From assembly GCA_046758505.1 (NCBI GenBank), contig JBHIAH010000017.1, positions 1 to 45,265 on the forward strand: DNA of 45,265 bases, given 5' to 3'. Below the pieces are notes generated by a model. That model did not search any database. It saw nothing but the letters and a program-made list of their open reading frames with translations, and had not been told where the DNA came from. Shown here in pieces: positions 12,316 through 27,425 of this stretch (position 1 is its first letter; every line of letters begins with the position of its first letter). Origin of the DNA: Candidatus Methylomirabilales bacterium. Lineage in GTDB: Bacteria > Methylomirabilota > Methylomirabilia > Methylomirabilales > CSP1-5. The position numbers were made by a program, and so were the translations under genes.

Positions 12316-12328
12316 TACAAGGCTCCTC

Positions 12329-12401: not shown

Positions 12402-12447
12402 GAAGACGCAGCTTGACTACGCTCAACGCTCGACTCTGGGCCTACCT

Positions 12448-12951: not shown

Positions 12952-12963
12952 GTCGTTTTCAGT

Positions 12964-13344: not shown

Positions 13345-13510
13345 GGCTGCACCTCCATGAGAAAGGTCCTGTAAGTCTTTTTCGATCCTCACGCCTCGTC
13401 CATCTGACGGGGCGCGTCCCCTGGAAATTCCACGTGTCTTCTCACCCTCGATGGGCCGCCCTCCCTGATCCTTGGACTGAGTGCACCTCCCATCGGGGTA
13501 TCACCCCGGC

Positions 13511-15163
13511 CTACCACACCCGGAAGCCCGGCGTGTTGAACGGCGTCGTGGCGATGAGCCGGACCAGGGTTGGACCGTACGCAATGACGATCATCACGCC
13601 AGCCAAGGCGAGCCACGGCCGCCACCGGTCGAGGATCGCCGGCGCATTCTCGGGACCCGACAGTGCCTCGGCGAACGGCACCTCTCCGACCGCCGGCTTG
13701 CGGGATGCCACCACCGTGAGCACGATGTTCGCGAAGTAGAGCATCGCGCTGATGAACAGGATGGTTCCCCCGATTCCCACGAGCGACAGGGCCGAGTGCC
13801 ACTCGGGCTGCAGATAGGGCGAGGCGCCGATCATGGTCCGCCGCGGCATCCCCATGAGTCCGAGGCGATGCTGGGCATTGGAGAAGATCGCCATCCCGAC
13901 GAACCAGAGCCATGCCTGGGCCAGCGCCATCCGCCGGCCCCAGAGCTGCCGCCCGCTGAGCAGCGGAACCAGCCAGTAGGTAATCCCCATAAAGGTCAGG
14001 GTCACGGCCGTTCCCACCGTCAGGTGGAAATGTCCGGGGACCCACGCCGTGTTGTGGACCACCAGGTTCATGGTGAACGACGCGTTGATCAGGCCCCCCA
14101 CGCCGCCAAAGGCAAAGAGGAGCATCGCCAGGACCTGCGCCGCCACGGACGGATCGCCCCAGGGGAGCTTTCCGAACCATGCAAACCACCCCCTGCCTCC
14201 GCGCGCCCGTGCCCCGGTCTCGAGGGAGGCAACGACGCCGAAGAAGGTCAGGAGGCTGGGGAAGAAGACCGCGAACGTGAGGAAGGCGTGAAGCAGCTTC
14301 CACCCCTCCCCGATACCCGGATCGGTGAACTGGTGGTGGAAACCGAGCGGGGTCGAGAGGATGAGGAACAGGATGAACGTGACCCGTGCCAGCGGGTCGC
14401 TGAAGAGCCGTCCCCCGGCCTGGCGTGGGAGGAGCGTGTACCAGGAGAGGTACGCGGGGAGAAGCCAGAAGTACACGATCGGGTGCCCGGTGTACCAGAA
14501 GAGGACCCGCGCCAGGAGTGCGTCGGTCCCCGCGACGAGCCCGAGCGACCACGGGATCAGCATGAAGAGCATCTCGGCCGCCAGTCCCAGCGAGGCGATC
14601 GTCCACATGACAAAGGTGACCAGCGACATGAAGGCGGGCAGCGGCGTGCGGGTCCCGGGATTCCGTGCCCGCCAGCGGCGATACGTCAGCACGAGGTTCA
14701 GGGTCACGAGCCAGGTGGCGACCACGACCACGGTGAGCCCGGTGTAGAAGGTCCAGTGGGCTTTCATCGGGGGGTAAAAGGTGTACAGGACGGTGGCCGC
14801 GTTGCCCAGCAGGGGGATCGCCGCGAGAACAAGTCCCCCCGTCATGAGCCAGAAGGTTGCCCACGCCAGGAGACGGCTCCAGAGCGGCATGCCGAGGGCC
14901 CGGACGGTCATGAACTGCAGAAACCCGGCAATGAAAAATGTCGTCCAGACCAGGACATTGAGCACCCCATGAAGGCTGAGGCCCTGGTAGTACGACTTGA
15001 TCACGGGTGCAAGCCAGGGGTATAGATCGATGCCGGCCTGCTCGAGCGCCTGAAAGAGCCCCAACAGGACGCCGCCAAAGAGCGCGAGGAGCGCGACGAC
15101 GAGGTAGGCGACCGTCAGGCGGTCTTCCGGTCCAAGATCAAGTGCTCTATTTGGGGCGGTCAT
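13511..15163 (-). CDS. cbaA: B-family (ba3-type) heme-copper oxygen reductase subunit I
   Basis: YYQGLSLHGVLNVLVWTT, FWYTGHPIVYFW (His plus cross-link Tyr), GFHHQF, GHFHLTVG and GMPRR. The start overlaps the cbaB stop (ATGA). Confidence 0.95.
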   Translation of the reverse strand: MTAPNRALDLGPEDRLTVAYLVVALLALFGGVLLGLFQALEQAGIDLYPWLAPVIKSYYQGLSLHGVLNVLVWTTFFIAGFLQFMTVRALGMPLWSRLLAWATFWLMTGGLVLAAIPLLGNAATVLYTFYPPMKAHWTFYTGLTVVVVATWLVTLNLVLTYRRWRARNPGTRTPLPAFMSLVTFVMWTIASLGLAAEMLFMLIPWSLGLVAGTDALLARVLFWYTGHPIVYFWLLPAYLSWYTLLPRQAGGRLFSDPLARVTFILFLILSTPLGFHHQFTDPGIGEGWKLLHAFLTFAVFFPSLLTFFGVVASLETGARARGGRGWFAWFGKLPWGDPSVAAQVLAMLLFAFGGVGGLINASFTMNLVVHNTAWVPGHFHLTVGTAVTLTFMGITYWLVPLLSGRQLWGRRMALAQAWLWFVGMAIFSNAQHRLGLMGMPRRTMIGASPYLQPEWHSALSLVGIGGTILFISAMLYFANIVLTVVASRKPAVGEVPFAEALSGPENAPAILDRWRPWLALAGVMIVIAYGPTLVRLIATTPFNTPGFRVW

Positions 15164-15666
15164 GATTTTGAGCCTCCGGGCGCGGGCGGTACGACGATGA
15201 CCTTTCCCCCCATCGTGTGATGTGCGATTCCGCAATACTCGTGACAGAAGAAGGGATATATCCCGGGGCGGTCGAAGCGCGTGGTGGCTCGCGCGACCTG
15301 CCCCGGCAGGATCATCACGTTGACGGTGGACCGGGGGATAAAGAGCCCGTGGACCACGTCCCGGCTGGTGGCCACGAAGGTGACGGTCGAGCCGGCCGGC
15401 ACGCGGATCACGTTCGGGGTGAAGAGCCAGATGCCGGCGACCATCCGGACTTCGTACCGCCCCGGCCCGACCTCGACCACGCCCGGCTGGTCAAATGGGG
15501 CCGTCGTCAGTATCTTGGTGGGATCGACACGCCCCGCGTCCCCCGGCAGGTGCACGTCGGCGCCAAAGGCAAAGACGACCAGCGCCACCAACATGGCGAC
15601 CGGAATGGCAATGCTGGGGAGGATCCACGCAAGCTCGTACAGGTAGACGGTGCTGCCGCGTCTCAT
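15160..15666 (-). CDS. cbaB: ba3-type oxidase subunit II (CuA)
   Basis: One N-terminal TM, DVVHG and CHEYCGIAHHTM CuA ligands. Confidence 0.95.
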   Translation of the reverse strand: MRRGSTVYLYELAWILPSIAIPVAMLVALVVFAFGADVHLPGDAGRVDPTKILTTAPFDQPGVVEVGPGRYEVRMVAGIWLFTPNVIRVPAGSTVTFVATSRDVVHGLFIPRSTVNVMILPGQVARATTRFDRPGIYPFFCHEYCGIAHHTMGGKVIVVPPAPGGSKS

Positions 15667-16322: not shown

Positions 16323-16724
16323 CTACCCGCGTGCAAGATGAGCCAAGGTCTTTCGTTCCAGTCGGGCGACGAGTTGCGGCCTTATCTGACTCCAATCCCG
16401 ATGGAGGGGGCAGGGATCCCTCTCGCCGCATCGGTCTTCCCAGAAGAGGCAACGCGCAAAGAGATCCACCCCCTCGATGCTCTCCAGGATTGCCCGCACG
16501 GCGATCTGGCCGGCCGGCCTGGCCAGGGCGTACCCCCGGTGACGGCCCCGGTGAGATCGCACCAGGCCATGGCCTAAGAGCTTCTGAAAGATCTTGGAGA
16601 GAAATCCTGCCGGGATCCCCAGCGCATCCGCGATCTCCGGTACCGAGCAGACCGTCCCTGCTGGCCGGCGGGCCAGGAAGATCAGGGCCCGAAGCGCGTA
16701 TTCCGTTTCCCGCCGTAGCCGCAT
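16323..16724 (-). CDS. Rrf2-family transcriptional regulator with putative Fe-S ligands
   Basis: EYALRAL...EIA...FLSKIFQKL...GLVRSHRG..GY.LARP winged helix, and a C-terminal CLFWEDRCGERDPCPLH (3 Cys + His). Start moved to ATG 16724. Confidence 0.92.
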   Translation of the reverse strand: MRLRRETEYALRALIFLARRPAGTVCSVPEIADALGIPAGFLSKIFQKLLGHGLVRSHRGRHRGYALARPAGQIAVRAILESIEGVDLFARCLFWEDRCGERDPCPLHRDWSQIRPQLVARLERKTLAHLARG

Positions 16725-17047
16725 GGTCTCAACGGACCTCTTGACTCCACTGGCCTCCGGGTCCGTGGAATCCAGCAAGGGCCATACCAGCAGTGGAGAC
16801 GGACGCTGCGGATCGCTAACTATAGATTTCAGCGCGCTTTGATTTTTGGACTCTCCGCAGCGATGCGCGTCCTGCGGGACAGAAGTGCCTCAGCGTTTTG
16901 TCTGTTCTCAGCCGGAATCGATTCTAACTGATGATTGAGAAAGGGAAGAGAGACGTGGGGCACCGATGTACCAGAGTATGGCCCCCGGTCACGATATGTC
17001 CCATGGCTGGGTTTGCATCTTTTACCTCGCCCCTTCCCGGTTTTCTC

Positions 17048-17512
17048 TCATTGCTGTCCTGGGGACGTGGCCTCAAGTCCCCGAATGAGCGCTTGGTGTT
17101 CAGCCGAAGAAAGGGTGCCTTGTGGGTTGAACGCGGCGTAGTACCACGGGGGCATTTCCCCCTTCCGCACGGCCCGGACCAGCTTCTGTGCCCCCTTCTG
17201 CGACCGGTCCCCCTCCGAGAAGTTCAGAACCTTCCGCCCGTCGTTCACATCGCGCTGAGTGAGCCATGACACGGGGGCGATGTTGGCGTACCACGGCCAG
17301 ACCGTCTTGTTGCTATGGCAGTCATAGCAGGCGCGGGCAGCCAGCTCCTGTGTCTGTCGGCTGTCCCAGGTCGGCTCCGTCCGCACGGGGGGATCCGTGT
17401 GATTGTGCCCGTAGGGGATCGCCTGAATGCCCAACACAAACATGACGACGCCGATCAATACCCGCCGTGCCCGCCTAGACCTCCGGCTGCTCATGTCGTG
17501 CATTCCATCCAT
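17048..17512 (-). CDS. Membrane-anchored monoheme cytochrome c of the Haem_bd family
   Basis: N-terminal TM, then ACYDCHSNKTVWPWYANIAPVSWL, LNFS and EMPPWYY. Start uncertain (17512, 17503 or 17494). Confidence 0.85.
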   Translation of the reverse strand: MDGMHDMSSRRSRRARRVLIGVVMFVLGIQAIPYGHNHTDPPVRTEPTWDSRQTQELAARACYDCHSNKTVWPWYANIAPVSWLTQRDVNDGRKVLNFSEGDRSQKGAQKLVRAVRKGEMPPWYYAAFNPQGTLSSAEHQALIRGLEATSPGQQ

Positions 17513-18074
17513 TGGGGCACCGGGTGACTCCGGAGTGGTTTTCTGTGGCGCGTCCCGCTCCCTGGTGCTCAAAGCTCTTCCTCGTATCCAGGTGTGGCCG
17601 GTGGCGGAGTATATCGGATTTGACTTTCACGATGCAACATCCTTAATCACCCCTCGGGTTCCTCGAGGGACTGGCGAAGATGCTGCAGCCGTCGGCCCCC
17701 GCCATGAGAGGGTTCTGTTCCTGCTCCCCACTCTCTGTCCTATCAGGCCAACCCCTGCCCACTTTTTCACCTTCCCTCTTCGCAAGGGGAGCCAGAACCA
17801 TACCTTCCACAAATGGTCTTCGCGGGGCATCGCCTCCCCACTGTGGCACTGGTGCCCCAGCAGAAACCCTTGTCATGAGAGGAAAATTACGTAGGCGAGA
17901 AGCTATCGCTGTCCCATGCCAGGGACAGTCGAGAACCACAAATTGAGCTGAACCCGGAACGTGCTCGAAAATTCGCGGAGTTAGCGACACCACGTCTCTG
18001 GCACCCTTCTTGCCGGCCATGCTGGGAAGATTGGCAACCTCATGAAATTCCAGATGCGTGAACTTGAACAGGAG

Positions 18075-18178: not shown

Positions 18179-18856
18179 ATGGAAGGACCGGTTCGCGTCC
18201 TGGTGGCCGACGACCACATCCTCTTCCGCAGCGGGTTAATCAGTCTATTATCCGCCGAGCCCGGGATTGAGGTGGTGGGTGAGGCCGACACCGGCCGGAG
18301 GACGGTGGAGAAGACCAGGGAACTCATGCCGGATGTAGTCCTCATGGACGTCTACATGCCGGACTGGGATGGGATCGAAACCACCCGTCACCTGAAGGCC
18401 GAGCTTCCCTACGTCAAGATCATCATCCTGACGATTGCCGAAGATGAGAAAGTCCTCTTCGAGGCGGTGAAGGCCGGGGCCCAGGGGTATCTTCTGAAAA
18501 AGATCGAGCCCCAGCAGCTCTTCGACCAGATTCGAGCGGTCGCGTGCGGTGAGGGGGCGATCGCGGGCCACCTGGCCGCCAGGCTGCTCAAGGAATTTGC
18601 CCGCCAGAACAAACCGGACGGGGCGCACCCCTTGCAGGAGCTCACGGGCCGGGAGCGCGAAGTGCTCCAGCTCGTTACCCAGGGCAAGACGAACAAGGAG
18701 ATTGCCGGTGAGCTTTGCATCGCCGAGAACACGGTGAAGAACCACTTGAAGAACATTCTCGAAAAGCTCCACCTCCAAAACCGCGTCCAGGCGGTCGCCT
18801 TTGCCCTCCGACAAGGGTTAAGTGTCCCATCGCCTTCCAACCAAGCCAACCAATAA
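18179..18856 (+). CDS. NarL/LuxR-family response regulator (paralog 2, orphaned)
   Basis: VRVLVADDH...PDVVLMD...GAQGYLLK, and HTH LTGREREVL...NKEIA...TVKNHLKNILEKL. Confidence 0.95.
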   Translation: MEGPVRVLVADDHILFRSGLISLLSAEPGIEVVGEADTGRRTVEKTRELMPDVVLMDVYMPDWDGIETTRHLKAELPYVKIIILTIAEDEKVLFEAVKAGAQGYLLKKIEPQQLFDQIRAVACGEGAIAGHLAARLLKEFARQNKPDGAHPLQELTGREREVLQLVTQGKTNKEIAGELCIAENTVKNHLKNILEKLHLQNRVQAVAFALRQGLSVPSPSNQANQ

Positions 18857-18924: not shown

Positions 18925-19014
18925 TAGCCCAAAGGGGCTATCGAGCATAGCCCTTCTTTTTCAGAAAATTAGCTCCTCCAGGGGATAGGCAGCTCTCTTC
19001 GTTCCGCCTAGACT
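18925..19014 (+). promoter_or_regulatory. Conserved promoter element, copy 3
   Basis: Perfect palindrome TAGCCC-AAAG-GGGCTA (18925-18940), then GGGCTA-N7-TAGCCC...GAAAA, which aligns with the reverse complement of 591-659. GGGGATA lies 21 nt before TAGACT (19009-19014). Confidence 0.65.
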
Positions 19015-19095: not shown

Positions 19096-19614
19096 GTGGG
19101 CTGGGGAAGGTTCGGGCTTGTCCTGAGTGTGGTTGCTGTTCTCGTCGGCTGCGGCGGAATCCCGCCGCTCCCGTCGGGATCGCTCGATCCACTGGGGCCG
19201 GTGACGACCAGCCCGGGGAAGACCGCGGAAGGGCCCGGCGCAAGAGATGAGACCCCGCCTCAATCAACGGCCGCGTCCGCCGGGGAAACAGGGAGTATGA
19301 AGCAGGCCAAAGTGTGGGTTGGGCGGTATCGGGACAGCCGGGGCGAGGGGGACATCACGTTTTCCCTGGTTCGGAAAGAAGCGACCCTGTACGGGGTCTG
19401 GACACTCAGAACGGGAGGAGGTGGGCCGGTCAAGGGGACGATCGGATCGGACGGAGAGGCGCTGACCTTCCGCATGGAGAACACCGCGCCGGAGTGCCAG
19501 GGGTTCTTTACCGGGCACGGCATGGTGGAGCAGAAGGTCATTCGGGGGGCGTACGAAGGGAAAGATTGCCAGGGAGAGGTATCGGACGGGTACCTCGAGC
19601 TTCGGTTGAAGTAG
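19096..19614 (+). CDS. Hypothetical lipoprotein
   Basis: AGGAGG SD and GTG start, lipobox VLVGC, Pro/Ser/Thr linker, then a beta-rich domain with two Cys. Confidence 0.75.
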   Translation: MGWGRFGLVLSVVAVLVGCGGIPPLPSGSLDPLGPVTTSPGKTAEGPGARDETPPQSTAASAGETGSMKQAKVWVGRYRDSRGEGDITFSLVRKEATLYGVWTLRTGGGGPVKGTIGSDGEALTFRMENTAPECQGFFTGHGMVEQKVIRGAYEGKDCQGEVSDGYLELRLK

Positions 19615-19673
19615 TCGCCTGCAGGTATCTCTTCGTGGGTGAGCAATGAATGCTGGGCGAAAGGAGGTATGAT

Positions 19674-20864
19674 ATGTCGAAGCGAACTGTGGCCCTCTGC
19701 GCGACGCTTGCCATGTTGGCGACTGGCCTGATCATGGCGCCGTCCGCGTGGGCGGTCCCGGCCTTTGCGCGGGCATACGGCATGAGCTGTTCGGGCTGCC
19801 ACACCACCTGGCCGGCGCTGAACGCCACCGGGCGGAAGTTCAAAGAGAACGGATACACGTTCCAGCGCGGAAAGCCCAAGGAGATGAAGAATATCGGGAA
19901 GCTGGGGAACATCCCGATCACCTTTCCCTGGGCCCTGGTGGTCAAGAGCCGCCCCTACGACAAGAAGGAGAACAAGGACACGAAGCTTCGCGCACTTCAC
20001 GAGCTCGAGTTCTTCGTCGCCGGCAACGCCTGGAACTACGGATCCTTCTTCGCCGAGTTCGAAGCGGAAGACGAGGCGGGTTTCGACTTCGAGCTGGCGC
20101 ATGCGGTCGGCGGCATTCACCCGCACCCCCTGGCCAATATCGTCCTCGGGAAGGCGCAGGTGTTTCACGTCGATCCGCACGATACCCTCACCAACGATCG
20201 CCGGCTCACGCGGAGCAAGCGGCAGGCGTTGGCCCAGGGGGAAACAACCGGGGTCACGCTGGATTCACCGGTCCAGATGGTGAGCCTCTACGGGCGGGAG
20301 ACGGTCGCCAACAAAGTCTTCTATGCGCTGACCTATTCGGCCGACGTGAAGGATGACGAGGGGGAAGGCCCCAAGGATTGGACGGGGCGGCTGGTCGTCG
20401 ACGTCCTTCCCCAGGTCTCGGTCGGGGGCTTCATCACCACCGGCGAGCAGGCAAAGACCGTCGGGGCGATCACCCGCGAGCTCGACTTCAAGCGGTACGG
20501 GTTTGACGTCCAGGCGCAGATTGACGGCGTGAACGTGCTCGGGGCCTTTGTGAAGGCGGAGGACGATCTGTTCGCGGCCGGGGATGAACAGAACAATCTC
20601 TGGTACGGCGAGATCTACTATACCGTGGACAAGAAGGTCCTGGATAGCGTCGGCATCCCCGGGGTCAGAATCGTCCCCATCTTCCGGTTCGACCAGTACG
20701 AAAAAATGGATGGGGACCAACGGTTCAAGGAGGTCACGGCGAACATTTCCTACTATCCCTGGGAGAACGTGAGGGTGTACACTGAGTTCTTCAAGCCCCT
20801 CGATGCGCCGTCGGGAACGGCAAAGCCGTGGCGGTGGACGGTGCAGGTCGAGTTCGGGTTCTGA
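19674..20864 (+). CDS. cyc2: Cyc2-like outer-membrane monoheme cytochrome-porin fusion (copy 1)
   Basis: Signal peptide, then AVPAFARAYGMSCSGCHTTWPALNATGRKFKENGY (AxPxFAR-x5-CxxCH-PxL signature). Amphipathic beta-strands and a C-terminal Phe (VQVEFGF). Start ATG 19674 with AGGAGG SD. Confidence 0.75.
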   Translation: MSKRTVALCATLAMLATGLIMAPSAWAVPAFARAYGMSCSGCHTTWPALNATGRKFKENGYTFQRGKPKEMKNIGKLGNIPITFPWALVVKSRPYDKKENKDTKLRALHELEFFVAGNAWNYGSFFAEFEAEDEAGFDFELAHAVGGIHPHPLANIVLGKAQVFHVDPHDTLTNDRRLTRSKRQALAQGETTGVTLDSPVQMVSLYGRETVANKVFYALTYSADVKDDEGEGPKDWTGRLVVDVLPQVSVGGFITTGEQAKTVGAITRELDFKRYGFDVQAQIDGVNVLGAFVKAEDDLFAAGDEQNNLWYGEIYYTVDKKVLDSVGIPGVRIVPIFRFDQYEKMDGDQRFKEVTANISYYPWENVRVYTEFFKPLDAPSGTAKPWRWTVQVEFGF

Positions 20865-20869
20865 GGGCG

Positions 20870-20997
20870 CGTGCCGGCAGGGCACTCTCCTTCGCCGGCA
20901 CGGGCAGCCCTCGCACAGGGCCGTTTCACGGACAGGCCAACGCAAGGGCTCCACAACCGCTGAAGCCGCGGGGAGGGAAGGACCTCCCTCCCCGCGG
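20870..20997 (+). other. Two strong intergenic stem-loops
   Basis: CGTGCCGGC (20870-20878) pairs with GCCGGCACG (20894-20902). A perfect 13-bp stem CCGCGGGGAGGGA / TCCCTCCCCGCGG (20966-20997) has a 6-nt loop. No long U tract follows. Confidence 0.7.
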
Positions 20998-21019
20998 ACT
21001 TTCCCGGATGAGGAGAGGA

Positions 21020-22198
21020 GTGAAACTCTTGATGACTGCATGCCGAGCGATTTTGGCCTTCGTCGTCGTTAGTCTTCTCACGCTGACCTCGACGCCGCCC
21101 GTTGCGGCTGATGACACCCCCGAAGAGGTTTTCGAGGAAACCTGCGCGCTCTGCCACAGCCTCGATCGTGCGAAGGAGCGGCACCTCACCCGCAGCGAGT
21201 GGAACGAGGTTCTCGACCGCATGGTCGGGTTTGGGGCGCAGATCTCCGACAAGAAGCGGGGGATGATCCTCGCGTACCTGGTCAAGACGCAGGGGCCCCA
21301 GAAGGCGCCAGCGGCCAAGGCACCGAGAGCGTATGTGGTCAGCGAAAAGTCCGAGGAGGTGTGGGTCATCGACGTGGCGACCCGCAAGGTGGAGCGCAAG
21401 ATCAAGGTCGGCAAGCTCCCCCACGGCATCGCTGCCTCCCCGGACGGCAAGGCCCTTTACGTCACGAACATGGGGAGTAACGATATCACGGTCATCAATA
21501 CGAAGACCTACGAGACCACCACCATGGGCGGGACCGGCCTGAACCCCCACGAATGCGCGGTAAGCCCCGCGGGCCGGTTCCTCTACGTGTCGAACCCGAG
21601 CAGTAACGCCATAACCGTGCACGACATGGCGACTCATACCCCGGTTGCCACGATCCCGGTTGGGCGATTTCCGCATGGCGTGGTCATCTCGGCCGATGGA
21701 AAAATGCTCTATGCAGCCAACATGGAGTCCCACAGCATCTCGGTGGTCGATACGGCCACGAATCAGGTGAGTGCCACCATTCAGACGGCCGCCGGACCGC
21801 ACAAGCTGGCCCTGAGTCCGGACGGCAAATTCCTGTACGTCGTCAACACGGATGACAACCGCCTTTCGATTATCGACACGGCCCAAGGTCGCCAAGTCAA
21901 ATCGGTGCTGGTGGGCCGGGCGCCCTACGACGTCACGGTTGGGACCGGCGGGACCACCGTCTGGGTCGCCAACGGTGAATCTGATAGTGTCGAGGCGCTC
22001 GACAGCCGGACCGGCGAGGTGCTGGCCACCGTGACCGTGTCGGGCAGTCCGCACGGGCTGGCCCTCACCCCTGACGGCAAGGAGCTGTGGGTCGCCGACA
22101 TCGCTGCCAACGCCGTCGCGATCGTCGATATCGCCCAGCGAAAGGTCGTCGCCACTATCCCCGTGGGGAATCATCCCCACCTCGTCCTCATCCGCTGA
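21020..22198 (+). CDS. Periplasmic monoheme cytochrome c fused to a 7-bladed YVTN/YncE-type beta-propeller
   Basis: Signal peptide, CALCH...W..VLDRM cytochrome domain, then seven (V/T)G..P(H/Y)...SPDG-type repeats. Start near 21020-21032 after AGGAGAGGAG. Confidence 0.85.
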   Translation: MKLLMTACRAILAFVVVSLLTLTSTPPVAADDTPEEVFEETCALCHSLDRAKERHLTRSEWNEVLDRMVGFGAQISDKKRGMILAYLVKTQGPQKAPAAKAPRAYVVSEKSEEVWVIDVATRKVERKIKVGKLPHGIAASPDGKALYVTNMGSNDITVINTKTYETTTMGGTGLNPHECAVSPAGRFLYVSNPSSNAITVHDMATHTPVATIPVGRFPHGVVISADGKMLYAANMESHSISVVDTATNQVSATIQTAAGPHKLALSPDGKFLYVVNTDDNRLSIIDTAQGRQVKSVLVGRAPYDVTVGTGGTTVWVANGESDSVEALDSRTGEVLATVTVSGSPHGLALTPDGKELWVADIAANAVAIVDIAQRKVVATIPVGNHPHLVLIR

Positions 22199-22449
22199 TC
22201 CTTTCGTGCACTGCTCGCCGCTCCGGTGGCAGCCTGAGCACGACCAGCTGCCCCAGGCCGCCCCGACTGGCTGCTACCCGCTCTGACCTGCTCCAGGCAA
22301 CCGGCTCGTTGGCGTGAGAAGGGCCGGCATAATGAACCGCTCATTTTCGATACCGAGCAACGGGCGGTCGAGGGAGGTCAAGAGTCCAACGTCGCATGCC
22401 GATTGGCCTCCCGACCCTCAAAGGAACTGTTGCCAGGAGGAGTAGGACG

Positions 22450-24429
22450 GTGGTCGCGCCGTCGCCTAGTTTCCCTGGGAAGATGAGTCGGAGGCTCAGC
22501 CTGGCCGCTGCCTCGCTCTTCTCTTTGGTCCTCGTGGTTGGGGGGATCTCTATCCTGCTGGCGTATTGGATCTTGGAAAGCACCGATCAGATCGAAACGC
22601 TGAGCGAAGAGATCAAGGGCATCGACCAGATCCATTTCACGGCCCATCACTTGGTCGATACCATCTCATATGCCGCAACCCGTGGGAGACCCGATGCCGG
22701 AGACGATCTTCCGCACATCATCTCGAATCTGAGCGGTCAGGTGCAGGCGTATCTCACGTATTTGAAGACGAACAAGGGTCTTCTGGAAGAGGAGCTCGAG
22801 TTTGAGATTTTCCAGGAGCTCATGGGCACCGCCTCCGACCTCGGCCGCGTCTCCGAGAGGATCTTCGGAGCGGTCACGCGGGGGAATCAGGCAAAGGCCG
22901 GCGATCTTCAAAGCCTCCTTGGACTTATCCGCAGGATTCACCGTCGGGCTGAACAGCTTACCCATATCCACCAAGCGAAGATCCGCCAACTCGTCCAGAG
23001 TAGCGAGGCGAAGATGCGGCTCATCCTACTTTTTTATTTGGCCTTCGTTTTGGTTGGCGGCCTGCTGATCGTGATGGGGAGTTACTTTTTTTCCCGGGCC
23101 ATCGTTGCCCCTCTCCGGACATTGGCGACCGCCACGCAGGAAGTGGCCGGCGGACACTTCAAGAAGCGGGTTTCCGTCTCCTCCAATGACGAGATCGGCC
23201 AACTCTCCCATGCCTTCAACGTAATGGCCGAGAAGTTAGAGCAACACGAGGAGCAGCTAACAAGCCTGAACGAAAGCTTAGAACACAAGGTGCGAGAGGC
23301 GGAGGCCCTCTACAAGATCGGGACGGAGATTCTGGGGCTGTTGGATCTCGACAAGGTCCTGCACTCCGTCGTGGAGAAGGCAAAGGATCTGCTGGGCTGT
23401 GAGATCGGTGCGCTATGTCTGCTAGATGATGAAAAGGACGAACTGGTTCCCCGGGTGACCAGCGGCCCCGCCGAGGCCTTTGGGAAGGGGAGGAGCAAGC
23501 GGGTGGACCGGGACCTGGCAGTCGCCCCGACGGCCCATTGCCCCCCGGCGCAAGGAGCAGGAGGTCAAGGGAGATCTCTCTTTCGTTGCGCGATGGTGAA
23601 GCCCGAATACCTCGAGGCCCATCTGACCGTCCCCTTGAAAAGAGGGGAGAAAGTGATCGGGGTCTTCTGCGTCGGGGATAGGAGGCCTCGGGAGTTCTCT
23701 GCCGCCGAGGTCGACCTGCTCGCGGGTCTCGCCACGCAGGCCGCCATCGCCATTGAGAATGCCAAGCTTTACGAGAGGACACAAGGCTTGGCTATCCTGG
23801 AGGAGCGGGAGCGGATCGCCCGGGAGATGCATGATGGCCTGGCCCAGGCCTTGGGCGCCATGCACTTCCGGATCAGCAGGGCTCAAGAGTTGCTGAAGGG
23901 GCCCCAAACGGCCAGGGTCCAGAACGCCCTCGAGGAGATCCGGAAGATGGCCGAGGGCGCCTATGAAGAGATCCGTCAGGCCATCTTTGGCCTGCGAACC
24001 ATGGTCTCCCGAACGTTGGGGTTGGTCCCGACCCTGACGGAGTATCTGCACGAGTGGAGCCTCCAGAACGGCGTCGCCGCCGATCTCGAGATCGCCAACA
24101 AGAAGGCGATCAACCTTTCACCGGAGGCGGAATTACAACTGATCCGGATTATCCAAGAAGCATTGGCGAATGTGCGGAAGCATGCCGCGGCACGACACGC
24201 CCGGGTACGGTTCGAACTGGATGGGGACCATCTCCTCGTAACGGTCGCCGACGACGGAAGGGGGTTTGATCTGGCCGAGCTGCCACGGCGAACGAGTCAG
24301 AGCTTCGGATTCGAGACGATGCGGGAGAGGGCGGAATCAGTGGCCGGAAGCCTCCAGGTGCAGTCGCAACCCGGAAGAGGGACTTCCGTCGTCGTTCGCC
24401 TTCCCTTTTCCGGGGACGGGAGATTATAG
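22450..24429 (+). CDS. Sensor histidine kinase (periplasmic sensor - HAMP - GAF - HisKA_3 - HATPase)
   Basis: Two TMs, DEIGQLSHAFNVMA, GAF ending LATQAAIAIENAKLY, ERERIAREMHDGLAQ, QEALANVRKHA and DDGRGF. Probable GTG start at 22450. Confidence 0.95.
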   Translation: MVAPSPSFPGKMSRRLSLAAASLFSLVLVVGGISILLAYWILESTDQIETLSEEIKGIDQIHFTAHHLVDTISYAATRGRPDAGDDLPHIISNLSGQVQAYLTYLKTNKGLLEEELEFEIFQELMGTASDLGRVSERIFGAVTRGNQAKAGDLQSLLGLIRRIHRRAEQLTHIHQAKIRQLVQSSEAKMRLILLFYLAFVLVGGLLIVMGSYFFSRAIVAPLRTLATATQEVAGGHFKKRVSVSSNDEIGQLSHAFNVMAEKLEQHEEQLTSLNESLEHKVREAEALYKIGTEILGLLDLDKVLHSVVEKAKDLLGCEIGALCLLDDEKDELVPRVTSGPAEAFGKGRSKRVDRDLAVAPTAHCPPAQGAGGQGRSLFRCAMVKPEYLEAHLTVPLKRGEKVIGVFCVGDRRPREFSAAEVDLLAGLATQAAIAIENAKLYERTQGLAILEERERIAREMHDGLAQALGAMHFRISRAQELLKGPQTARVQNALEEIRKMAEGAYEEIRQAIFGLRTMVSRTLGLVPTLTEYLHEWSLQNGVAADLEIANKKAINLSPEAELQLIRIIQEALANVRKHAAARHARVRFELDGDHLLVTVADDGRGFDLAELPRRTSQSFGFETMRERAESVAGSLQVQSQPGRGTSVVVRLPFSGDGRL

Positions 24430-25095
24430 ATGGATACCTTCAGGATCCTCCTGGTGGACGATCACGCCCTTTTTCGCGACGGGCTGGCAAGCCTCCTGGC
24501 GGAACAGGCAGACTTTGAGGTGGTGGGGGAGGCCGAGAGTGGGGAAGAAGCGCTCGAGAGAGCCAAGGAGTTGGAGCCTGATCTCATCCTGATGGATATC
24601 TACATGCCGGGCGGGGATGGCCTGACCGCCACCCGCCGGATCAAGGAAGAGATGCCCTCCGTCAAAATCGTTATGCTCACGATCTCTGAGGAGGATCAAA
24701 AGCTCTTCGACGCCGTTAAGAGCGGAGCCCAGGGCTATCTCCTGAAGAGAATGAAGGCTCAGCAGTTCCTCGAGTTGCTCCGGGGAATCTCCCGGGGCGA
24801 GGCCCCCATCTCTCGCGCTATGGCGGCCAAGATCCTGGCCGAGTTCGCCCGCCAGGCCCCCCACGATCCCGGGTCGGCACCCGGCCTTCGACTCAGCCCC
24901 CGGGAGCGGGAAGTCCTCGAGCTCTTGACAAAGGGGCAGACCAACAAAGAGATTGCAACCGCGCTGGGGATCAGCGAAAACACGGTGAAAAATCGCCTCA
25001 AGAGTATCCTGGAGAAGCTCCACCTCGAGAACCGGGTCCAGGCCGTAGCTTACGCCCTCGAGAGGGGCTTGGTCAAAAGGACCCCTCCCGGCTAG
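24430..25095 (+). CDS. NarL/LuxR-family response regulator (paralog 3)
   Basis: RILLVDDH...PDLILMD...GAQGYLLK, and HTH LSPREREVL...TVKNRLKSILEKL; abuts the kinase stop. Confidence 0.95.
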   Translation: MDTFRILLVDDHALFRDGLASLLAEQADFEVVGEAESGEEALERAKELEPDLILMDIYMPGGDGLTATRRIKEEMPSVKIVMLTISEEDQKLFDAVKSGAQGYLLKRMKAQQFLELLRGISRGEAPISRAMAAKILAEFARQAPHDPGSAPGLRLSPREREVLELLTKGQTNKEIATALGISENTVKNRLKSILEKLHLENRVQAVAYALERGLVKRTPPG

Positions 25096-25134: not shown

Positions 25135-25162
25135 AGGGCTCTCGGACGGGAGCCCTTTTTTT
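25135..25162 (+). terminator. Intrinsic terminator
   Basis: AGGGCTCTC-GGAC-GGGAGCCCT stem-loop followed by a T run, about 40 nt after the regulator stop. Confidence 0.85.
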
Positions 25163-25313: not shown

Positions 25314-26651
25314 ATGAAGGGAGATACGTCTCTTATCGCGGCGCTCGTCCTGATCCTGGCCACCGGGTGTCTGATCCTTCTGCTCTTTCCTGATTCCTCG
25401 GAGGCGGTGCCGGCCTTCGCCCGAAAATACAAGGTCGAGTGTACCGTGTGCCATACGCGACCGCCCCGGCTGAACCCCTTCGGCGAACGGTTCCTGGAAA
25501 ACGGCTACCAGATCCCGGGGACGCAGGACGGTGGGATTGTGGAAAAGCTCAAATTGGGCAATGTGACACTCGACCTCGTCCATAATTACTTCGCGGTGCG
25601 CCTCCGGGGGAACGTCTACCGGCAGTTCGACGTCGAAACAGAGGATGAGGCGAAAGACAAAAAGGAGCTGACCTTTCCCGAGATTGTCAATGTTTTCTTT
25701 GCCGGGACGCTCACCAAGAACGTCGGAACCTTCATTGAGCTGGAGGGGAACATTGAAGAGGAGGAGACCGAGTTCGAGCGGAGTATCCTGAGCTTGAACA
25801 ACCTCTTCGGCGACTGGATCGGTCCTAACGTTGCCCATCTTCGCTTCGGGAAACTGGACCCCTCCGCCTACTTTTCCTTCCCCACCCACCGGCAGCAACT
25901 CCTCCCGGTTCCTGCGGAGATCGAGGGAGGCATGCTCGTGCGCCCCCCACTGGTCCCCAACGCCGGGGCGGCCAAGTTCTTCGGCCTCAGCAATAACGAG
26001 GGCAAATCGATCCTGCCATTGAAGCCGATCCTGTACAATACCACTGACGCGGTGGGTCTCGATCTGCACGGTCGCCCCTTTGGCGATATCTTTCTCTACC
26101 AGATGGGCATCCTCAATGGAGCGGACGAGGAGTTCGGCGACTCGAATACCGCGAAGGATCTTTACGTCATGGGCCGGTTCGACTGGGCCCGTTCCGATCT
26201 CTTCTCCGCTAGCCTCTCCGCCTTTGCGTACTTCGGGTACAACACCGCCAAGGTCGGAAACGACGGGGTGGACTGGCACCGCTACGGCATCGGGGCGAAC
26301 GTCCGGTGGAGGATGATCGACGTGTACGGGGCCTTTGTTTGGGACAAGATCCTGGATCTCTCTTCCACCACCGAGGCAACCTTCGACGATACGGCCTCCG
26401 GCATCACTGTAGAGGCGGATGTGTTGGTCACGAACTGGTTGCTCGCCTCGGTCCGGTTCGACCACCTGAACGCCGGCGGACGCCTTGCCATGAAAGCAGA
26501 CAACACGGTGCTCGGGACGCAGCTCAAGTTCTACCTCACAGACAATATCGGCCTGTATGTCCGAGACGATATCAACCTGCGAGATGAGGGCGAGAGCGCA
26601 CTCGAGAATCTGCGGAATACTTTCCTGGTCGGGGTTGACCTGGCCTTCTAG
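25314..26651 (+). CDS. cyc2: Cyc2-like outer-membrane monoheme cytochrome-porin fusion (copy 2)
   Basis: Signal peptide, then AVPAFARKYKVECTVCHTRPPRLNPFGERFLENGY, a beta-barrel-like body and a C-terminal VGVDLAF. Confidence 0.78.
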   Translation: MKGDTSLIAALVLILATGCLILLLFPDSSEAVPAFARKYKVECTVCHTRPPRLNPFGERFLENGYQIPGTQDGGIVEKLKLGNVTLDLVHNYFAVRLRGNVYRQFDVETEDEAKDKKELTFPEIVNVFFAGTLTKNVGTFIELEGNIEEEETEFERSILSLNNLFGDWIGPNVAHLRFGKLDPSAYFSFPTHRQQLLPVPAEIEGGMLVRPPLVPNAGAAKFFGLSNNEGKSILPLKPILYNTTDAVGLDLHGRPFGDIFLYQMGILNGADEEFGDSNTAKDLYVMGRFDWARSDLFSASLSAFAYFGYNTAKVGNDGVDWHRYGIGANVRWRMIDVYGAFVWDKILDLSSTTEATFDDTASGITVEADVLVTNWLLASVRFDHLNAGGRLAMKADNTVLGTQLKFYLTDNIGLYVRDDINLRDEGESALENLRNTFLVGVDLAF

Positions 26652-26663
26652 TGGAGGGGTGTA

Positions 26664-27425
26664 ATGAGGGAAAAAGTGCAAATGGGAAGTCTCGCCCTGG
26701 CCTCTATTTTCCTCCTTGCCCTACCGGCTTGGGGAGTCAAGCCGCTGGAGACACCAGAGCAGGTGACCCGTGGCAGGGCAATCTTTGAGCAATCGTGTAT
26801 CCTCTGTCACGGGGCCACAGGCGAGGGGGATGGGCCGGCGGCCTTTTTCATCGCCTCGTACGGGGCTCCCCGGCCGCAGAACTTCCATACGGACAACTTC
26901 AAATTTCGCTCAACCCCCTCGGGGATGCTCCCCACCGACGACGACCTGTTCCGGACCCTCACGAGGGGGGTTCCCGGCTTCATGCCCTCCTTCGCCGGGC
27001 TGAACGAACAGGAGCGGTGGCAGGTCATTTACTACATCAAAAGCTTTAACCCCAAATTTCAAACTGAGAAACCGGAGAATGTTGAGATCAAGGTCGGGCA
27101 CCCGCATCTCCCCACTCCGGGCCATCTCGCTCGCGGCAGGAAGCTGTACCGTGCGGCTGGATGTGGCGAGTGCCACGGGAAGAGTGGCCGCGGCGATGGG
27201 GAGAAGGCAGATGCGCTCAAGGATTATCGGGGGTTTCCGATCCGCCCCACCGACCTCACCAATCCCACGGCATTCAAGAACGGGAGCAGCCAGGAGGATA
27301 TCTACCGCACCATCATGACCGGCCTAAACGGGACTCCTATGCCCTCTTATGCGGACGCCTTTGAAGGCATGGAGGACGACATCTGGCACATGGTGCATTA
27401 CATTCTTTCCTTATCGAAAAGATAA
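26664..27425 (+). CDS. Periplasmic diheme cytochrome c
   Basis: CILCH and CGECH, FKFRST...PTDDDLFRT..MPSF, and DIYRTIMTGLNGTPMPSY. Homologous to the N-terminal half of 40920-42551; starts 12 nt after the cyc2-like gene. Confidence 0.9.
   Translation: MREKVQMGSLALASIFLLALPAWGVKPLETPEQVTRGRAIFEQSCILCHGATGEGDGPAAFFIASYGAPRPQNFHTDNFKFRSTPSGMLPTDDDLFRTLTRGVPGFMPSFAGLNEQERWQVIYYIKSFNPKFQTEKPENVEIKVGHPHLPTPGHLARGRKLYRAAGCGECHGKSGRGDGEKADALKDYRGFPIRPTDLTNPTAFKNGSSQEDIYRTIMTGLNGTPMPSYADAFEGMEDDIWHMVHYILSLSKR

What the first reader, a model, noticed from the sequence alone, without database searches (positions are those of the whole stretch)
19096..22198. Candidate undescribed outer-membrane redox module: lipoprotein + Cyc2-like heme-porin + cytochrome c/propeller
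Seen: three co-oriented exported-protein genes behind promoter copy 3, flanked by two-component genes. Established: Cyc2 is a fused monoheme cytochrome-porin, shown to oxidise Fe(II) in some clades, while many homologs are untested. I know of no described Cyc2 operon with these two partners. Inference: a trans-envelope system that oxidises or imports an extracellular inorganic substrate and passes electrons to the cytochrome pool, ba3 oxidase and ACIII.
Basis: partly seen in the sequence, partly recalled or inferred. Interest (0 to 1): 0.8.

Follow-up and report, generated by a model that had tools for sequence, protein, structure and literature searches.

The report
Cyc2 haem-porin with lipoprotein and cytochrome-propeller
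Three neighbouring genes in an uncultured Methylomirabilota-type bacterium encode an outer-membrane pore with a built-in haem (a true relative of the iron oxidase Cyc2), a haem-less lipoprotein that almost always travels with such pores, and a cytochrome fused to a propeller, which together look like an undescribed way of wiring the cell surface to respiration.

Summary
Three co-oriented genes for exported proteins lie at 19096-22198, between a LuxR response regulator and a histidine kinase/regulator pair. The "promoter copy 3" was not found.

- **B (404 aa)** is a Cyc2-family cytochrome-porin. It has one CXXCH, the Cyc2 motif (AVPAFARAY, PAL), a 16-strand barrel model, and full-length profile homology to Gallionellaceae-type Cyc2 (99.4%).
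- **A (172 aa)** is a haem-less lipoprotein of no named family: a lipobox, an invariant PLPxxSLDP, a disordered tether and an 8-strand soluble barrel.
- **C** is a monohaem cytochrome c fused to a 7-blade YVTN propeller.

A is tightly linked to Cyc2-like genes. The link holds in 16 of 18 genomes with a stand-alone A; the other two lie on short contigs. It also holds in 40 of 78 metagenome loci, and the 38 without are all cut short upstream.

All three genes are seen together in four more genomes (one with C cut by a contig end) and five metagenome loci. The porin type differs between them. B's nearest relatives often lack A and C.

The best reading is an outer-membrane electron-entry module for Fe(II) or a similar donor. 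Substrate, direction and physical contact are untested. I rate it a new variant of a known kind. Earlier notes of this scan reported other Cyc2-like porins with lipoprotein partners on other DNA.

The parts
18179..18856 (+). LuxR-family response regulator upstream of the trio (receiver + GerE HTH)
   Evidence: Pfam Response_reg 2.7e-27 and GerE 3.5e-22. Similar regulators precede the cassette in L087, L088, L091, L116 and L209.
18933..18955 (+). Terminator-like hairpin between the regulator and gene A
   Evidence: A 9-pair stem followed by a T-run in the consensus scan. This is a pattern match only.
19096..19614 (+). Gene A: haem-less outer-membrane lipoprotein. It has a lipobox Cys19, an invariant PLPxxSLDP, a disordered linker (about residues 33-69) and an 8-strand soluble beta-barrel (70-172) with an invariant Cys134/Cys158 pair.
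   Evidence: - No Pfam or NCBIfam hit.
- 74 homologues found, all unnamed.
- Alignment A3 gives the invariant residues.
- The AF2 model has pLDDT above 95 for residues 70-172, with 8 strands.
- Structure searches return generic 8-strand barrels only.
- There is no CXXCH in the sequence.
19650..20864 (+). Gene B: Cyc2-family fused monohaem cytochrome-porin. The likely start is 19674. The haem motif is CSGCH at residues 47-51 and the 16-strand barrel spans residues 94-403.
   Evidence: - The motif AVPAFARAY..CSGCH..PAL fits the published Cyc2 signature.
- The AF2 model has pLDDT 86 and pTM 0.82, with 16 strands.
- Foldseek matches OmpF, OmpC and OmpK36 at E about 1e-11.
- hhalign against Gallionellaceae-type Cyc2 gives probability 99.4 and E 3.2e-21 over 332 columns.
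20968..20995 (+). Perfect 11-bp inverted repeat (GCGGGGAGGGA / TCCCTCCCCGC) in the B-C spacer, with no T-run
   Evidence: Read from the sequence. Its function is unknown; it could modulate C expression or stabilise the mRNA.
21008..22198 (+). Gene C: exported monohaem class-I-type cytochrome c (CALCH) fused to a 7-blade YVTN beta-propeller. The ORF is open from 20828.
   Evidence: - TIGR02276 YVTN repeat: 239 bits, 7 stretches.
- Pfam YNCE 1.5e-26, and the Dehyd-heme_bind haem domain at 26 bits against a cut-off of 25.2.
- The nearest solved chains are 1L0Q and hydrazine synthase beta 5C2V.
- Orthologues of 52-75% identity occur in 6 other genomes of the phylum.
22396..24429 (+). Sensor histidine kinase (HAMP-GAF-HisKA_3-HATPase), possibly co-transcribed with A-B-C
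   Evidence: Pfam hits. No terminator-like site lies between C and this gene. Kinases of the same type flank the cassette in L087, L088, L091 and L116.
24430..25095 (+). Second LuxR-family response regulator, followed by a terminator-like hairpin at 25135-25156
   Evidence: Pfam Response_reg 3.6e-30 and GerE 1.2e-20. Hairpin.
25314..26651 (+). Second Cyc2-like cytochrome-porin (445 aa) with a perfect signature (AVPAFARKY..CTVCH..PRL). It has no A-type lipoprotein beside it.
   Evidence: (40% identity to B over the haem domain, E 3e-14).
26664..27425 (+). Dihaem cytochrome c directly after the second Cyc2-like gene (a cyc2-cyc1-like pair)
   Evidence: NCBIfam hits are all below their cut-offs, for example cbb3 subunit II/cytochrome c and cytochrome 579. 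Homologues of this protein sit between the Cyc2-like gene and A in L090, L093 and L214.

Best explanation
The locus encodes an outer-membrane electron-entry module built around a Cyc2-family cytochrome-porin.

- **B** sits in the outer membrane as a 16-strand barrel. It carries one c-type haem on a short N-terminal domain. As shown for Cyc2 proteins elsewhere, it would take single electrons from a dissolved extracellular reductant that enters the pore, most likely Fe(II).
- **C** is exported to the periplasm. Its cytochrome c domain would be the dedicated first acceptor. Its YVTN propeller would act as a docking scaffold.
- **A** is lipid-anchored to the outer membrane and carries no redox cofactor. 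It would be a structural adaptor: a long flexible tether and an 8-strand binding barrel hold the periplasmic partner at the pore.
- From C, electrons would pass to soluble c-type cytochromes and on to the haem-copper oxidase or the ACIII-like complex encoded nearby.
- The adjacent HAMP-GAF kinase and LuxR regulators would control expression.

Shown: the gene structure, the family membership of B, the folds, and the conserved gene linkage.

Inferred: protein contacts, direction of electron flow, substrate and regulation.
For: **1. B meets the published Cyc2 criteria.**
- The criteria come from Keffer 2021, PMC8406198, section 12.
- B has one CXXCH and 8 of 9 positions of AXPXFAR[Q/K][T/Y]. PXL starts 4 residues after the CXXCH. 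Its length is 396-404 aa, above the 365 aa minimum.
- The model has 16 strands and is porin-like.
- The profile-profile match to Gallionellaceae-type Cyc2 covers both the haem domain and the barrel: probability 99.4, E 3.2e-21, 332 columns.

**2. Cyc2 proteins oxidise Fe(II) when expressed in E. coli.**
- Keffer 2021: abstract and passages read.
- A cluster-3-type Cyc2 of a Thermodesulfovibrionia MAG, PMC13647500: passages read.

**3. A is linked to Cyc2-like genes.**
- With profile A3, 24 of 251 genomes of the phylum have a match, and 18 of these carry a stand-alone A.
- In 16 of those 18, a Cyc2-signature gene lies on the same strand within about 2.6 kb.
- The other two (G013, G043) lie on contigs of 4.3 and 2.8 kb that end near A.
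- Of 78 metagenome loci found with A, 40 hold a Cyc2-like haem domain on the same strand.
- The 38 without all have under 2,230 nt upstream of A. In the Cyc2-first arrangement the haem domain starts 1,597-2,629 nt upstream.

**4. C orthologues occur in 7 of 251 genomes.**
- Six of them show A and/or a Cyc2-like gene beside C.
- All three genes are seen in G000, G034, G213 and G053.
- G203 also has all three, but C is cut by the contig end, so it is not among the 7.
- Metagenome loci L095, L100, L125, L156 and L127 also hold all three.

**5. Where C is absent, other periplasmic c-type cytochromes take its place.**
- These are a dihaem of about 200 aa in 8 of 9 loci inspected, and monohaem plus pentahaem c7-like proteins.

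**6. The propeller looks like a scaffold for a one-electron centre.**
- Propellers 51-60% identical to C's are fused to multicopper-oxidase domains by precomputed Pfam (P0164, P0165, P0167, P0169, P0170).
- A two-domain multicopper oxidase was confirmed on P0164, the one I scanned.

**7. Domain fusions of A's barrel.**
- A's barrel domain occurs fused behind PQQ/BamB-like propellers. This weakly suggests that it binds propellers.

**8. Genomic context.**
- The window also encodes a haem-copper oxidase, an ACIII-like complex and many c-type cytochromes.
Against: - B-type porins do not need A or C. Among B's nearest relatives in the tree, L008 and L009 have neither within the flanks held. L007 has no A in 2.2 kb upstream, and L005 has no C in 1 kb downstream.
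- Only 1 of the 56 genome-contig loci (L006) had A by tblastn. None of the Gallionellaceae-type Cyc2 loci did.
- The porin inside the A/C cassette belongs to different Cyc2-like clades in different genomes. This argues against a tightly co-evolved barrel contact.
- A's barrel is a promiscuous domain. It is also found behind trypsin-like proteases, Kelch and PKD domains. A could therefore be a general envelope helper.
- No RuBisCO large subunit was found in the 96.8%-complete genome, so this is not a classic CBB iron-oxidising autotroph.
- B groups apart from the Gallionellaceae-type sequences. Keffer 2021 calls the function of divergent Cyc2 homologues the most uncertain.
- No expression data, no complex model and no haem geometry were obtained.
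Confidence: 0.55

Rival explanations
1. The same hardware runs the other way or on another substrate. The module would export electrons to extracellular Fe(III) or Mn(IV), or take them from Mn(II), reduced sulfur species, humics or a partner cell, rather than oxidising Fe(II).
For: - Cyc2 homologues are proposed for Mn(II) oxidation in Ca. Manganitrophaceae (PMC9040806, passages read).
- Many homologues in organisms not known to oxidise iron are untested (PMC7029218 and PMC8406198, passages).
- The genome lacks RuBisCO and pmoA, with a positive control in G050.
- Propellers 51-60% identical to C's are fused to multicopper-oxidase domains, a class that oxidises several metals (the substrate range is from my own knowledge).
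Against: - Every functional test of a Cyc2 protein that I read about was Fe(II) oxidation.
- Keffer 2021 predicts that a single haem at a narrow pore suits a dissolved ion rather than solids.
- No multihaem outer-membrane cytochrome lies in the cassette.
Confidence: 0.2
2. The three genes are neighbours without forming a complex. B works alone, as Cyc2 is thought to. C is one of many interchangeable periplasmic cytochromes. A is a general envelope lipoprotein, for example an assembly or quality-control helper for this class of barrel, and not a subunit of a redox machine.
For: - The porin type is swapped within the cassette.
- B-type porins occur without A and C.
- A's barrel domain is found behind trypsin-like (HtrA-type) proteases, where a substrate-binding domain is expected. 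The PDZ analogy is from my own knowledge.
- C is replaced by other cytochromes in many loci.
Against: - The A/Cyc2-like linkage has no evaluable exception in 16 genomes and 40 metagenome loci. That is more than a general helper would show.
- A is not found beside ordinary porins in these loci.
- C orthologues are beside A and/or a Cyc2-like gene in 6 of 7 genomes.
Confidence: 0.2
3. B is a haem-carrying porin used for something other than respiration, such as sensing, iron or haem uptake, or peroxide defence. The flanking two-component system would read out its state.
For: - Kinase and regulator genes accompany the cassette in several genomes.
- Two dihaem peroxidase (MauG/CCP) genes are in the window.
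- YncE-type propellers are linked to iron limitation in E. coli (my own recollection, not checked).
Against: - The partners are c-type cytochromes in every arrangement.
- The window is a respiratory island.
- No transporter or TonB-type gene lies in the cassette.
Confidence: 0.05

Closest known systems
Cyc2 fused cytochrome-porin Fe(II) oxidase (Acidithiobacillus ferrooxidans Cyc2 of the rus operon; Mariprofundus Cyc2PV-1; Gallionellaceae Cyc2)
   Same: B has the defining signature at the mature N-terminus, one CXXCH, PXL, a 16-strand barrel, a similar length, and full-length profile homology to Gallionellaceae-type Cyc2. A second copy in the window is followed by a dihaem cytochrome, like cyc2-cyc1.
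   Different: - B has Ala where the motif has Gln or Lys.
- B groups apart from the Gallionellaceae-type sequences.
- Its cluster (1-3) is not assigned.
- It is flanked by a haem-less lipoprotein and a cytochrome-propeller fusion. These were not mentioned in the Cyc2 papers I searched.
- None of the Gallionellaceae-type loci has A.
Porin-cytochrome complexes with an outer-membrane lipoprotein (MtrCAB/MtoAB, Geobacter Pcc) (recalled; mentioned in PMC9040806 and PMC13741234)
   Same: The parts list has three items: a barrel, a periplasmic cytochrome and a lipoprotein. All are encoded together for electron transfer across the outer membrane.
   Different: Here the haem is part of the barrel protein. 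All cytochromes are monohaem, not deca- or dodecahaem. The lipoprotein has no haem motif. There is no sequence relation.
FoxEYZ of Rhodobacter ferrooxidans SW2 and the NHL propellers UetH/UetI of Ca. Tenderia
   Same: A beta-propeller protein is encoded with iron-oxidation or electron-uptake cytochromes (PMC10654088; 10.1101/2022.05.06.490989).
   Different: FoxY is an 8-blade PQQ-type propeller, and UetH/UetI are NHL propellers without a fused cytochrome. C is a 7-blade YVTN propeller with its own cytochrome c domain.
Other Cyc2-like porin plus lipoprotein modules noted earlier by this scan (e1-3345956, e1-2319398, e1-1360199)
   Same: A haem-carrying porin has a lipoprotein as its constant partner. 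One of these also has a propeller fused to a one-electron centre (a cupredoxin).
   Different: Those lipoproteins carry haem or a Rieske cluster, and those barrels were judged distant cousins of Cyc2. Here the lipoprotein is cofactor-less and the barrel passes the Cyc2 tests. No sequence overlap with earlier windows was found.

Membership tests
Cyc2 fused cytochrome-porin family (criteria of Keffer et al. 2021, PMC8406198) | N-terminal signal peptide | tested here: met
   Read by eye: MSKRTVALCATLAMLATGLIMAPSAWA followed by VPAF. The same layout holds across alignment A1. No signal-peptide predictor was run.
Cyc2 fused cytochrome-porin family (criteria of Keffer et al. 2021, PMC8406198) | Exactly one CXXCH haem motif, near the N-terminus | tested here: met
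   CSGCH lies at residues 47-51 and is the only CXXCH in the protein. C47, C50 and H51 are invariant in 36 sequences.
Cyc2 fused cytochrome-porin family (criteria of Keffer et al. 2021, PMC8406198) | AXPXFAR[Q/K][T/Y] motif just upstream of CXXCH | tested here: met
   AVPAFARAY fits 8 of 9 positions, with Ala in place of Gln/Lys. The paralogue at 25314 has AVPAFARKY.
Cyc2 fused cytochrome-porin family (criteria of Keffer et al. 2021, PMC8406198) | PXL motif 4 residues after CXXCH | tested here: met
   The sequence reads CSGCH-TTW-PAL. P55 is invariant and L57 nearly so.
Cyc2 fused cytochrome-porin family (criteria of Keffer et al. 2021, PMC8406198) | Length of at least 365 aa with a 16-strand porin barrel | tested here: met
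   B is 396-404 aa. The AF2 model has 16 strands at pLDDT 86. Foldseek matches 16-strand general porins at E about 1e-11.
Cyc2 fused cytochrome-porin family (criteria of Keffer et al. 2021, PMC8406198) | Sequence homology to accepted Cyc2 proteins | tested here: met
   hhalign of A1 against 12 Gallionellaceae-type sequences (A4) gives probability 99.4 and E 3.2e-21 over 332 columns. That Gallionellaceae Cyc2 are accepted cluster 1 members comes from the papers. I did not verify that these particular ORFs are the published ones.
Cyc2 fused cytochrome-porin family (criteria of Keffer et al. 2021, PMC8406198) | Assignment to cluster 1, 2 or 3 by FeGenie HMM or the reference tree | not testable with these tools
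   No FeGenie models or reference alignment are on hand. B groups apart from the Gallionellaceae-type clade in my tree.
Cyc2 fused cytochrome-porin family (criteria of Keffer et al. 2021, PMC8406198) | Haem domain seated as a plug at the periplasmic mouth; Fe(II) oxidase activity | not testable with these tools
The N-terminal domain has pLDDT of only 45-85. Activity needs an experiment.
YVTN beta-propeller repeat proteins (TIGR02276) / YncE-like propellers (PF21783) | Seven YVTN repeats scoring above the family cut-off | tested here: met
   C scores 239.1 bits against a cut-off of 27.85, with 7 stretches. PF21783 scores 94 bits against 27.1.
PQQ-dependent catabolism-associated beta-propeller (TIGR03866) and hydrazine synthase beta (NF052340) | Whole-protein score above the curated cut-off | tested here: not met
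   C scores 233.9 against 287.3, and 158.5 against 560. C resembles these in fold only.
Any named lipoprotein or domain family for A | A match in Pfam or NCBIfam, or a specific structural relative | tested here: inconclusive
   There are no Pfam or NCBIfam hits at E of 0.01 or less. The Atlas returns unnamed clusters only. Structure searches give generic 8-strand barrels, with Z up to 13.7 but tied among unrelated families.

The most novel reading that the evidence does not exclude
A subset of Cyc2-type cytochrome-porins would not be stand-alone oxidases. They would be the core of a three-part outer-membrane complex.

- An unnamed, haem-less lipoprotein would be the obligatory adaptor. It has a lipid anchor, an invariant PLPxxSLDP, a tether and an 8-strand binding barrel.
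- This adaptor would clamp an exchangeable periplasmic one-electron module onto the pore. The module is a YVTN propeller carrying either a cytochrome c or a multicopper oxidase, or a dihaem c4-type cytochrome.
- The barrel itself can be swapped between Cyc2 clades while the adaptor and propeller are kept.
Probability: 0.3. Interest if true: 0.75.

Novelty: new variant of a known kind. Interest (0 to 1): 0.6.

Why it matters
Cyc2 is the most widely used marker gene for microbial iron oxidation. In the papers I read, it is drawn as a single protein that hands electrons to soluble periplasmic carriers.

A lipoprotein family that is strictly syntenic with Cyc2-like genes, and a dedicated cytochrome-propeller partner, would matter in three ways:
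- They would give the first candidates for accessory subunits.
- They could explain how the one-haem pore is coupled to the periplasm.
- They offer extra marker genes to separate functional classes among the many untested Cyc2 homologues.

The finding also widens the metabolic picture of non-methanotrophic Methylomirabilota. The runs that hold this DNA, which may be its source, are labelled hydrothermal vent metagenome.

The claim is directly testable with the E. coli expression system already used for Cyc2.

Tried and rejected
- **The search for related loci with the broad alignment A1:** this failed because no stretch was conserved enough. It was repeated with the closer alignment A2.
- **Repeated promoter:** not found.
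- **Protein Atlas:** only unnamed clusters for A and B.
- **Earlier-findings look-ups by place and by sequence:** nothing.
- **Sequencing runs:** no RNA holder is listed. The four holders are DNA runs of one study that may be the source of this DNA.
- **Slam (PF04575) as a route to surface exposure of A:** no hit in the genome, but the control rang nowhere, so this is uninformative.
- **pmoA (PF02461):** no hit in G000. The model did ring in G050.
- **Idea that A's barrel is a transmembrane OmpA-like barrel:** it scores Z of about 13 to OprF, PagL and OmpA. I rejected it because the domain is charged on both faces of its strands, carries a conserved Cys pair, and is fused behind soluble proteases and propellers.
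- **Idea that A is a redox protein:** rejected. It has no CXXCH, no conserved His, and only two conserved Cys.
- **Tree labels:** my script labelled the L087-L094 rows "noA" because a regular expression missed them. One search shows that A is adjacent in those loci, so the printed "changes" count of that call should not be used.
- **Supplements:** those of PMC13647500 and the figshare files of Keffer 2021 were not seen. They hold the reference sequences that would settle the cluster of B.

Full report
**What is there**

The + strand holds three ORFs that match the finding's coordinates.
- A is 19096-19614 (172 aa).
- B is 19650-20864 (404 aa). It more likely starts at the ATG at 19674 behind a GGAGG, which gives the 396 aa form held in public collections.
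- C is an ORF open from 20828 to 22198. Its likely start is the ATG at 21008 or 21032.

Upstream lies a LuxR-type response regulator (18179-18856). Downstream lie a HAMP-GAF-HisKA_3 kinase (22396-24429) and a second LuxR regulator (24430-25095).

Terminator-like hairpins stand at 18933-18955 and 25135-25156, with none between C and the kinase. A-B-C-kinase-regulator may therefore be one transcription unit, but this rests on a pattern scan only.

**The organism**

- The window is contig C17 of a 2.99 Mb, 149-contig genome, 96.8% complete.
- Named relatives of its proteins are Methylomirabilia/NC10 MAGs.
- No pmoA-type gene was found, although the same model rang in G050, a genome of the same order.
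- No RuBisCO large subunit was found.
- The only public runs holding this DNA may be its source. They are labelled hydrothermal vent metagenome.

**Gene B is a Cyc2-family protein**

Keffer et al. 2021 (PMC8406198; section 12 read in full, other passages by search) define the family by these features:
- a signal peptide
- one CXXCH
- the motif AXPXFAR[Q/K][T/Y] just before it
- PXL four residues after it
- at least 365 residues
- a 16-strand porin

B reads ...SAWA/VPAFARAY-GMS-CSGCH-TTW-PAL. All features are present, with Ala at the Q/K position.

- An AlphaFold2 model from 36 sequences has pLDDT 86 and pTM 0.82, and shows exactly 16 strands (residues 94-403) behind two short N-terminal helices.
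- Foldseek matches 16-strand general porins (OmpF, OmpC, OmpK36) at E about 1e-11.
- A profile of B's family aligns with a profile of 12 Gallionellaceae-type Cyc2 sequences. I took these from public genome contigs that carry the FARQT..CxxCH form of the motif. The match has probability 99.4% and E 3.2e-21 over 332 columns, and covers both the haem domain and the barrel.

Pfam and NCBIfam have no model for this family.

I could not assign B to Cyc2 cluster 1, 2 or 3, because the FeGenie models and the reference tree are not on hand. In my own quick tree of 71 sequences, B sits in a well-supported 23-row clade (SH-aLRT 99). The clade holds sequences from Binatia, Methylomirabilota, Vicinamibacterales, Myxococcales, Gammaproteobacteria, Nitrospirota and Woeseiaceae, and is apart from the Gallionellaceae-type clade.

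B orthologues are patchy. Only 3 of 66 genomes of the order have one at E of 1e-20 or less. This fits the horizontal transfer described for Cyc2 (PMC12442345, passages).

The genome has four Cyc2-like genes. One is in the window at 25314-26651, with a perfect signature, and is followed by a dihaem cytochrome c.

**Gene A is an unnamed lipoprotein**

It has no Pfam or NCBIfam hit. A 38-sequence alignment shows:
- a lipobox with an invariant Cys19
- an invariant PLPxxSLDP directly after it
- a variable low-complexity linker
- a conserved domain of about 100 residues (WVGRYRDSRGEG, LRTGGGGP, RMENTAPEC, Y.GKDC.G.VSDG) with two invariant cysteines, no CXXCH and no conserved histidine

The model gives pLDDT above 95 for residues 70-172, as eight strands. 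Residues 1-69 have block-mean pLDDT of 41-62, and residues 36-65 are below 50.

Structure searches return only generic eight-strand barrels. These include de novo barrels, avidins, GID4, the C-terminal barrels of neisserial surface lipoproteins, and OmpA-like membrane barrels. Z reaches 13.7, with unrelated families tied. I read the domain as a soluble binding barrel.

A profile search of 1.84 billion representatives finds 14 proteins at E of 1e-30 or less, 57 at 1e-10 or less, and 363 at 0.001 or less. Of 20 longer hits that I scanned, 8 have a trypsin-like protease domain. Others have PQQ/BamB-like or Kelch propellers or PKD domains, and 9 have no Pfam domain. In the window's own genus the domain ends PQQ-like propeller proteins of about 580 aa.

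**Gene C**

- The N-terminal part has one CALCH and weak cytochrome c family hits (Dehyd-heme_bind at 26 bits against a cut-off of 25.2).
- The rest is a seven-repeat YVTN propeller (TIGR02276, 239 bits).
- The nearest solved chains are the Methanosarcina surface-layer YVTN propeller 1L0Q, hydrazine synthase beta and YncE.
- It fails the cut-offs of the PQQ-associated propeller and hydrazine synthase families.
- Among its closest relatives in the big protein collection, five proteins of 616-638 aa are 51-60% identical over the propeller and carry multicopper-oxidase domains by precomputed Pfam in place of the cytochrome. A two-domain multicopper oxidase was confirmed on P0164, the one I scanned.

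**Is the gene set conserved?**

Starting from B:
- Of 56 loci in species-representative genomes, only L006 has A and C, in the same order. L006 is in the same genus and is the same contig as G034:C52.
- Identities there are A 49%, B 55% and C 70%.
- L008 and L009 have ample flanks and neither partner.
- L007 has no A in 2.2 kb upstream, and L005 has no C in 1 kb downstream.
- None of the Gallionellaceae-type loci has A.

Starting from A, in genomes:
- With the profile A3, 24 of 251 genomes of the phylum match, and 18 of them carry a stand-alone A.
- After fetching longer stretches, 16 of the 18 have a Cyc2-signature gene on the same strand within about 2.6 kb.
- The other two lie on contigs of 4.3 and 2.8 kb that end near A.

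Starting from A, in metagenomes:
- Of 78 metagenome loci found with A, 40 hold a Cyc2-like haem domain on the same strand.
- All 38 without have less than 2,230 nt upstream of A. In the Cyc2-first arrangement the haem domain begins 1,597-2,629 nt upstream.
- So I found no evaluable exception.

Three arrangements occur:
- A then Cyc2-like, as in the window.
- Cyc2-like directly followed by A.
- Cyc2-like, then a dihaem cytochrome of about 200 aa, then a longer A. The dihaem was seen in 8 of 9 loci inspected.

Starting from C:
- Orthologues at E of 1e-90 or less occur in 7 of 251 genomes.
- G000, G034 and G213 have A, a B-type porin and C.
- G053 has a Cyc2-like gene of another clade, then A, then C.
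- G249 shows the end of a B-type gene and then C, at a contig end.
- G088 shows A and then C, at a contig start.
- G245 has C alone.
- G203 has regulator, A, Cyc2-like and C, with C cut by the contig end.
- Metagenome loci L095, L100, L125 and L156 have A, Cyc2-like and C. L127 has Cyc2-like, A and C, and may be the same lineage as G088. Their propellers are 56-68% identical to C's.

Where C is absent, the neighbours are other c-type cytochromes. Kinase and LuxR regulator genes of the same kinds accompany the cassette in several genomes.

The order-level tallies include the unpublished genomes G031 and G041.

**A swapped porin**

In the tree, read together, A-linked Cyc2-likes fall in three separate clades. 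(One search corrects my script's wrong "noA" labels for L087-L094.) The window's B, with L006, lies in a clade whose other members are not A-linked. G213's B-type gene (64% identical to B) was not in that tree. A and C are kept while the barrel type changes.

Either the partners recognise the conserved N-terminal haem domain rather than the barrel, or they do not bind the porin at all.

**How it most likely works**

I commit to an outer-membrane electron-entry module.
- B oxidises a dissolved external donor, most likely Fe(II). This is the only activity shown for Cyc2 proteins in the papers I read.
- C's haem takes the electron in the periplasm.
- A, which has no cofactor, tethers the periplasmic partner to the pore.
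- Electrons go on to the cytochrome pool and the oxidase or ACIII-like complex encoded in the same window.

Only gene structure, family membership, folds and linkage are shown. Contact, direction and substrate are inferred. The rivals are:
- another substrate or the reverse direction
- neighbours without a complex
- a non-respiratory role

**Known or new?**

I searched the held library for the following:
- Cyc2 with "fused cytochrome-porin"
- Cyc2 with Methylomirabil*
- Cyc2 with beta-propeller and cytochrome
- Cyc2 with lipoprotein, "iron oxid" and porin

I also searched inside a 2026 review of iron-oxidation proteins (PMC13741234: 0 occurrences of lipoprotein or propeller), the Manganitrophaceae paper, the Gallionellaceae pangenome and the sequence-network paper.

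None describes a haem-less lipoprotein or a cytochrome-propeller fusion as a Cyc2 partner. Propellers are known beside other iron-oxidation or electron-uptake cytochromes (FoxY, UetH/UetI).

Subscription journals and the supplements named above were not seen.

Earlier notes of this scan report Cyc2-like porins with haem or Rieske lipoprotein partners on other DNA. This locus adds a cofactor-less partner family and a barrel that passes the Cyc2 tests.

**Verdict**

This is a real, conserved and apparently undescribed accessory gene set around a genuine Cyc2-family protein. It is a new variant of a known kind.

Noticed in passing
window 25314-27425: A second Cyc2-like cytochrome-porin (445 aa, perfect AVPAFARKY..CTVCH..PRL signature) is followed by a dihaem cytochrome c. 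This pair resembles cyc2-cyc1 and has no A-type lipoprotein. The genome holds two more Cyc2-like genes, on contigs C141 and C66.
   Followed up: partly
window 8068-15666 (- strand): A respiratory block: an NrfD-like membrane subunit, a fused molybdopterin-like/FeS subunit and a pentahaem c7-type cytochrome (ACIII-like), then haem-copper oxidase subunits I and II.
   Followed up: no
window 35060-40690 (- strand): A Rieske_3 + molybdopterin large subunit with a small Rieske subunit looks like an arsenite-oxidase-type enzyme (AioA/AioB-like). Two dihaem MauG/CCP-type peroxidase paralogues lie next to it. These paralogues explain repeat families D2 and D13.
   Followed up: no
window 40920-44674 (- strand), running towards the window end: A cytochrome c + EB_dh (ethylbenzene-dehydrogenase gamma-like) subunit, a NarJ-like chaperone and a NarH-like FeS subunit. 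This is a periplasmic Nxr/Nar/EBDH-type molybdoenzyme cluster.
   Followed up: no
window 591-666 and 2163-2238: A 76-nt direct repeat, 88% identical, lies at the ends of two - strand genes: a tri-domain cytochrome c gene and its upstream neighbour. It could be a shared regulatory or 5' region.
   Followed up: no
window 20968-20995: A perfect 11-bp inverted repeat with a 6-nt loop lies in the 143-nt spacer between B and C. It has no T-run.
   Followed up: no
P0164, P0165, P0167, P0169, P0170 (protein collection): YVTN propellers 51-60% identical to C's carry N-terminal multicopper-oxidase domains (precomputed Pfam) instead of a cytochrome c domain. A two-domain multicopper oxidase was confirmed by my own scan on P0164 only.
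   Followed up: partly
L073:142-1821, L086:148-1800 and relatives P0203, P0208, P0218, P0273: The 8-strand barrel domain of A is a mobile module. It ends PQQ/BamB-like propeller proteins of about 580 aa in the window's own genus. Elsewhere it follows trypsin-like proteases, Kelch propellers and PKD domains.
   Followed up: partly
window 17048-17572 (- strand) and 16323-16778 (- strand): A Haem_bd (PF14376) protein and an Rrf2-family regulator lie just upstream of the module, on the other strand.
   Followed up: no
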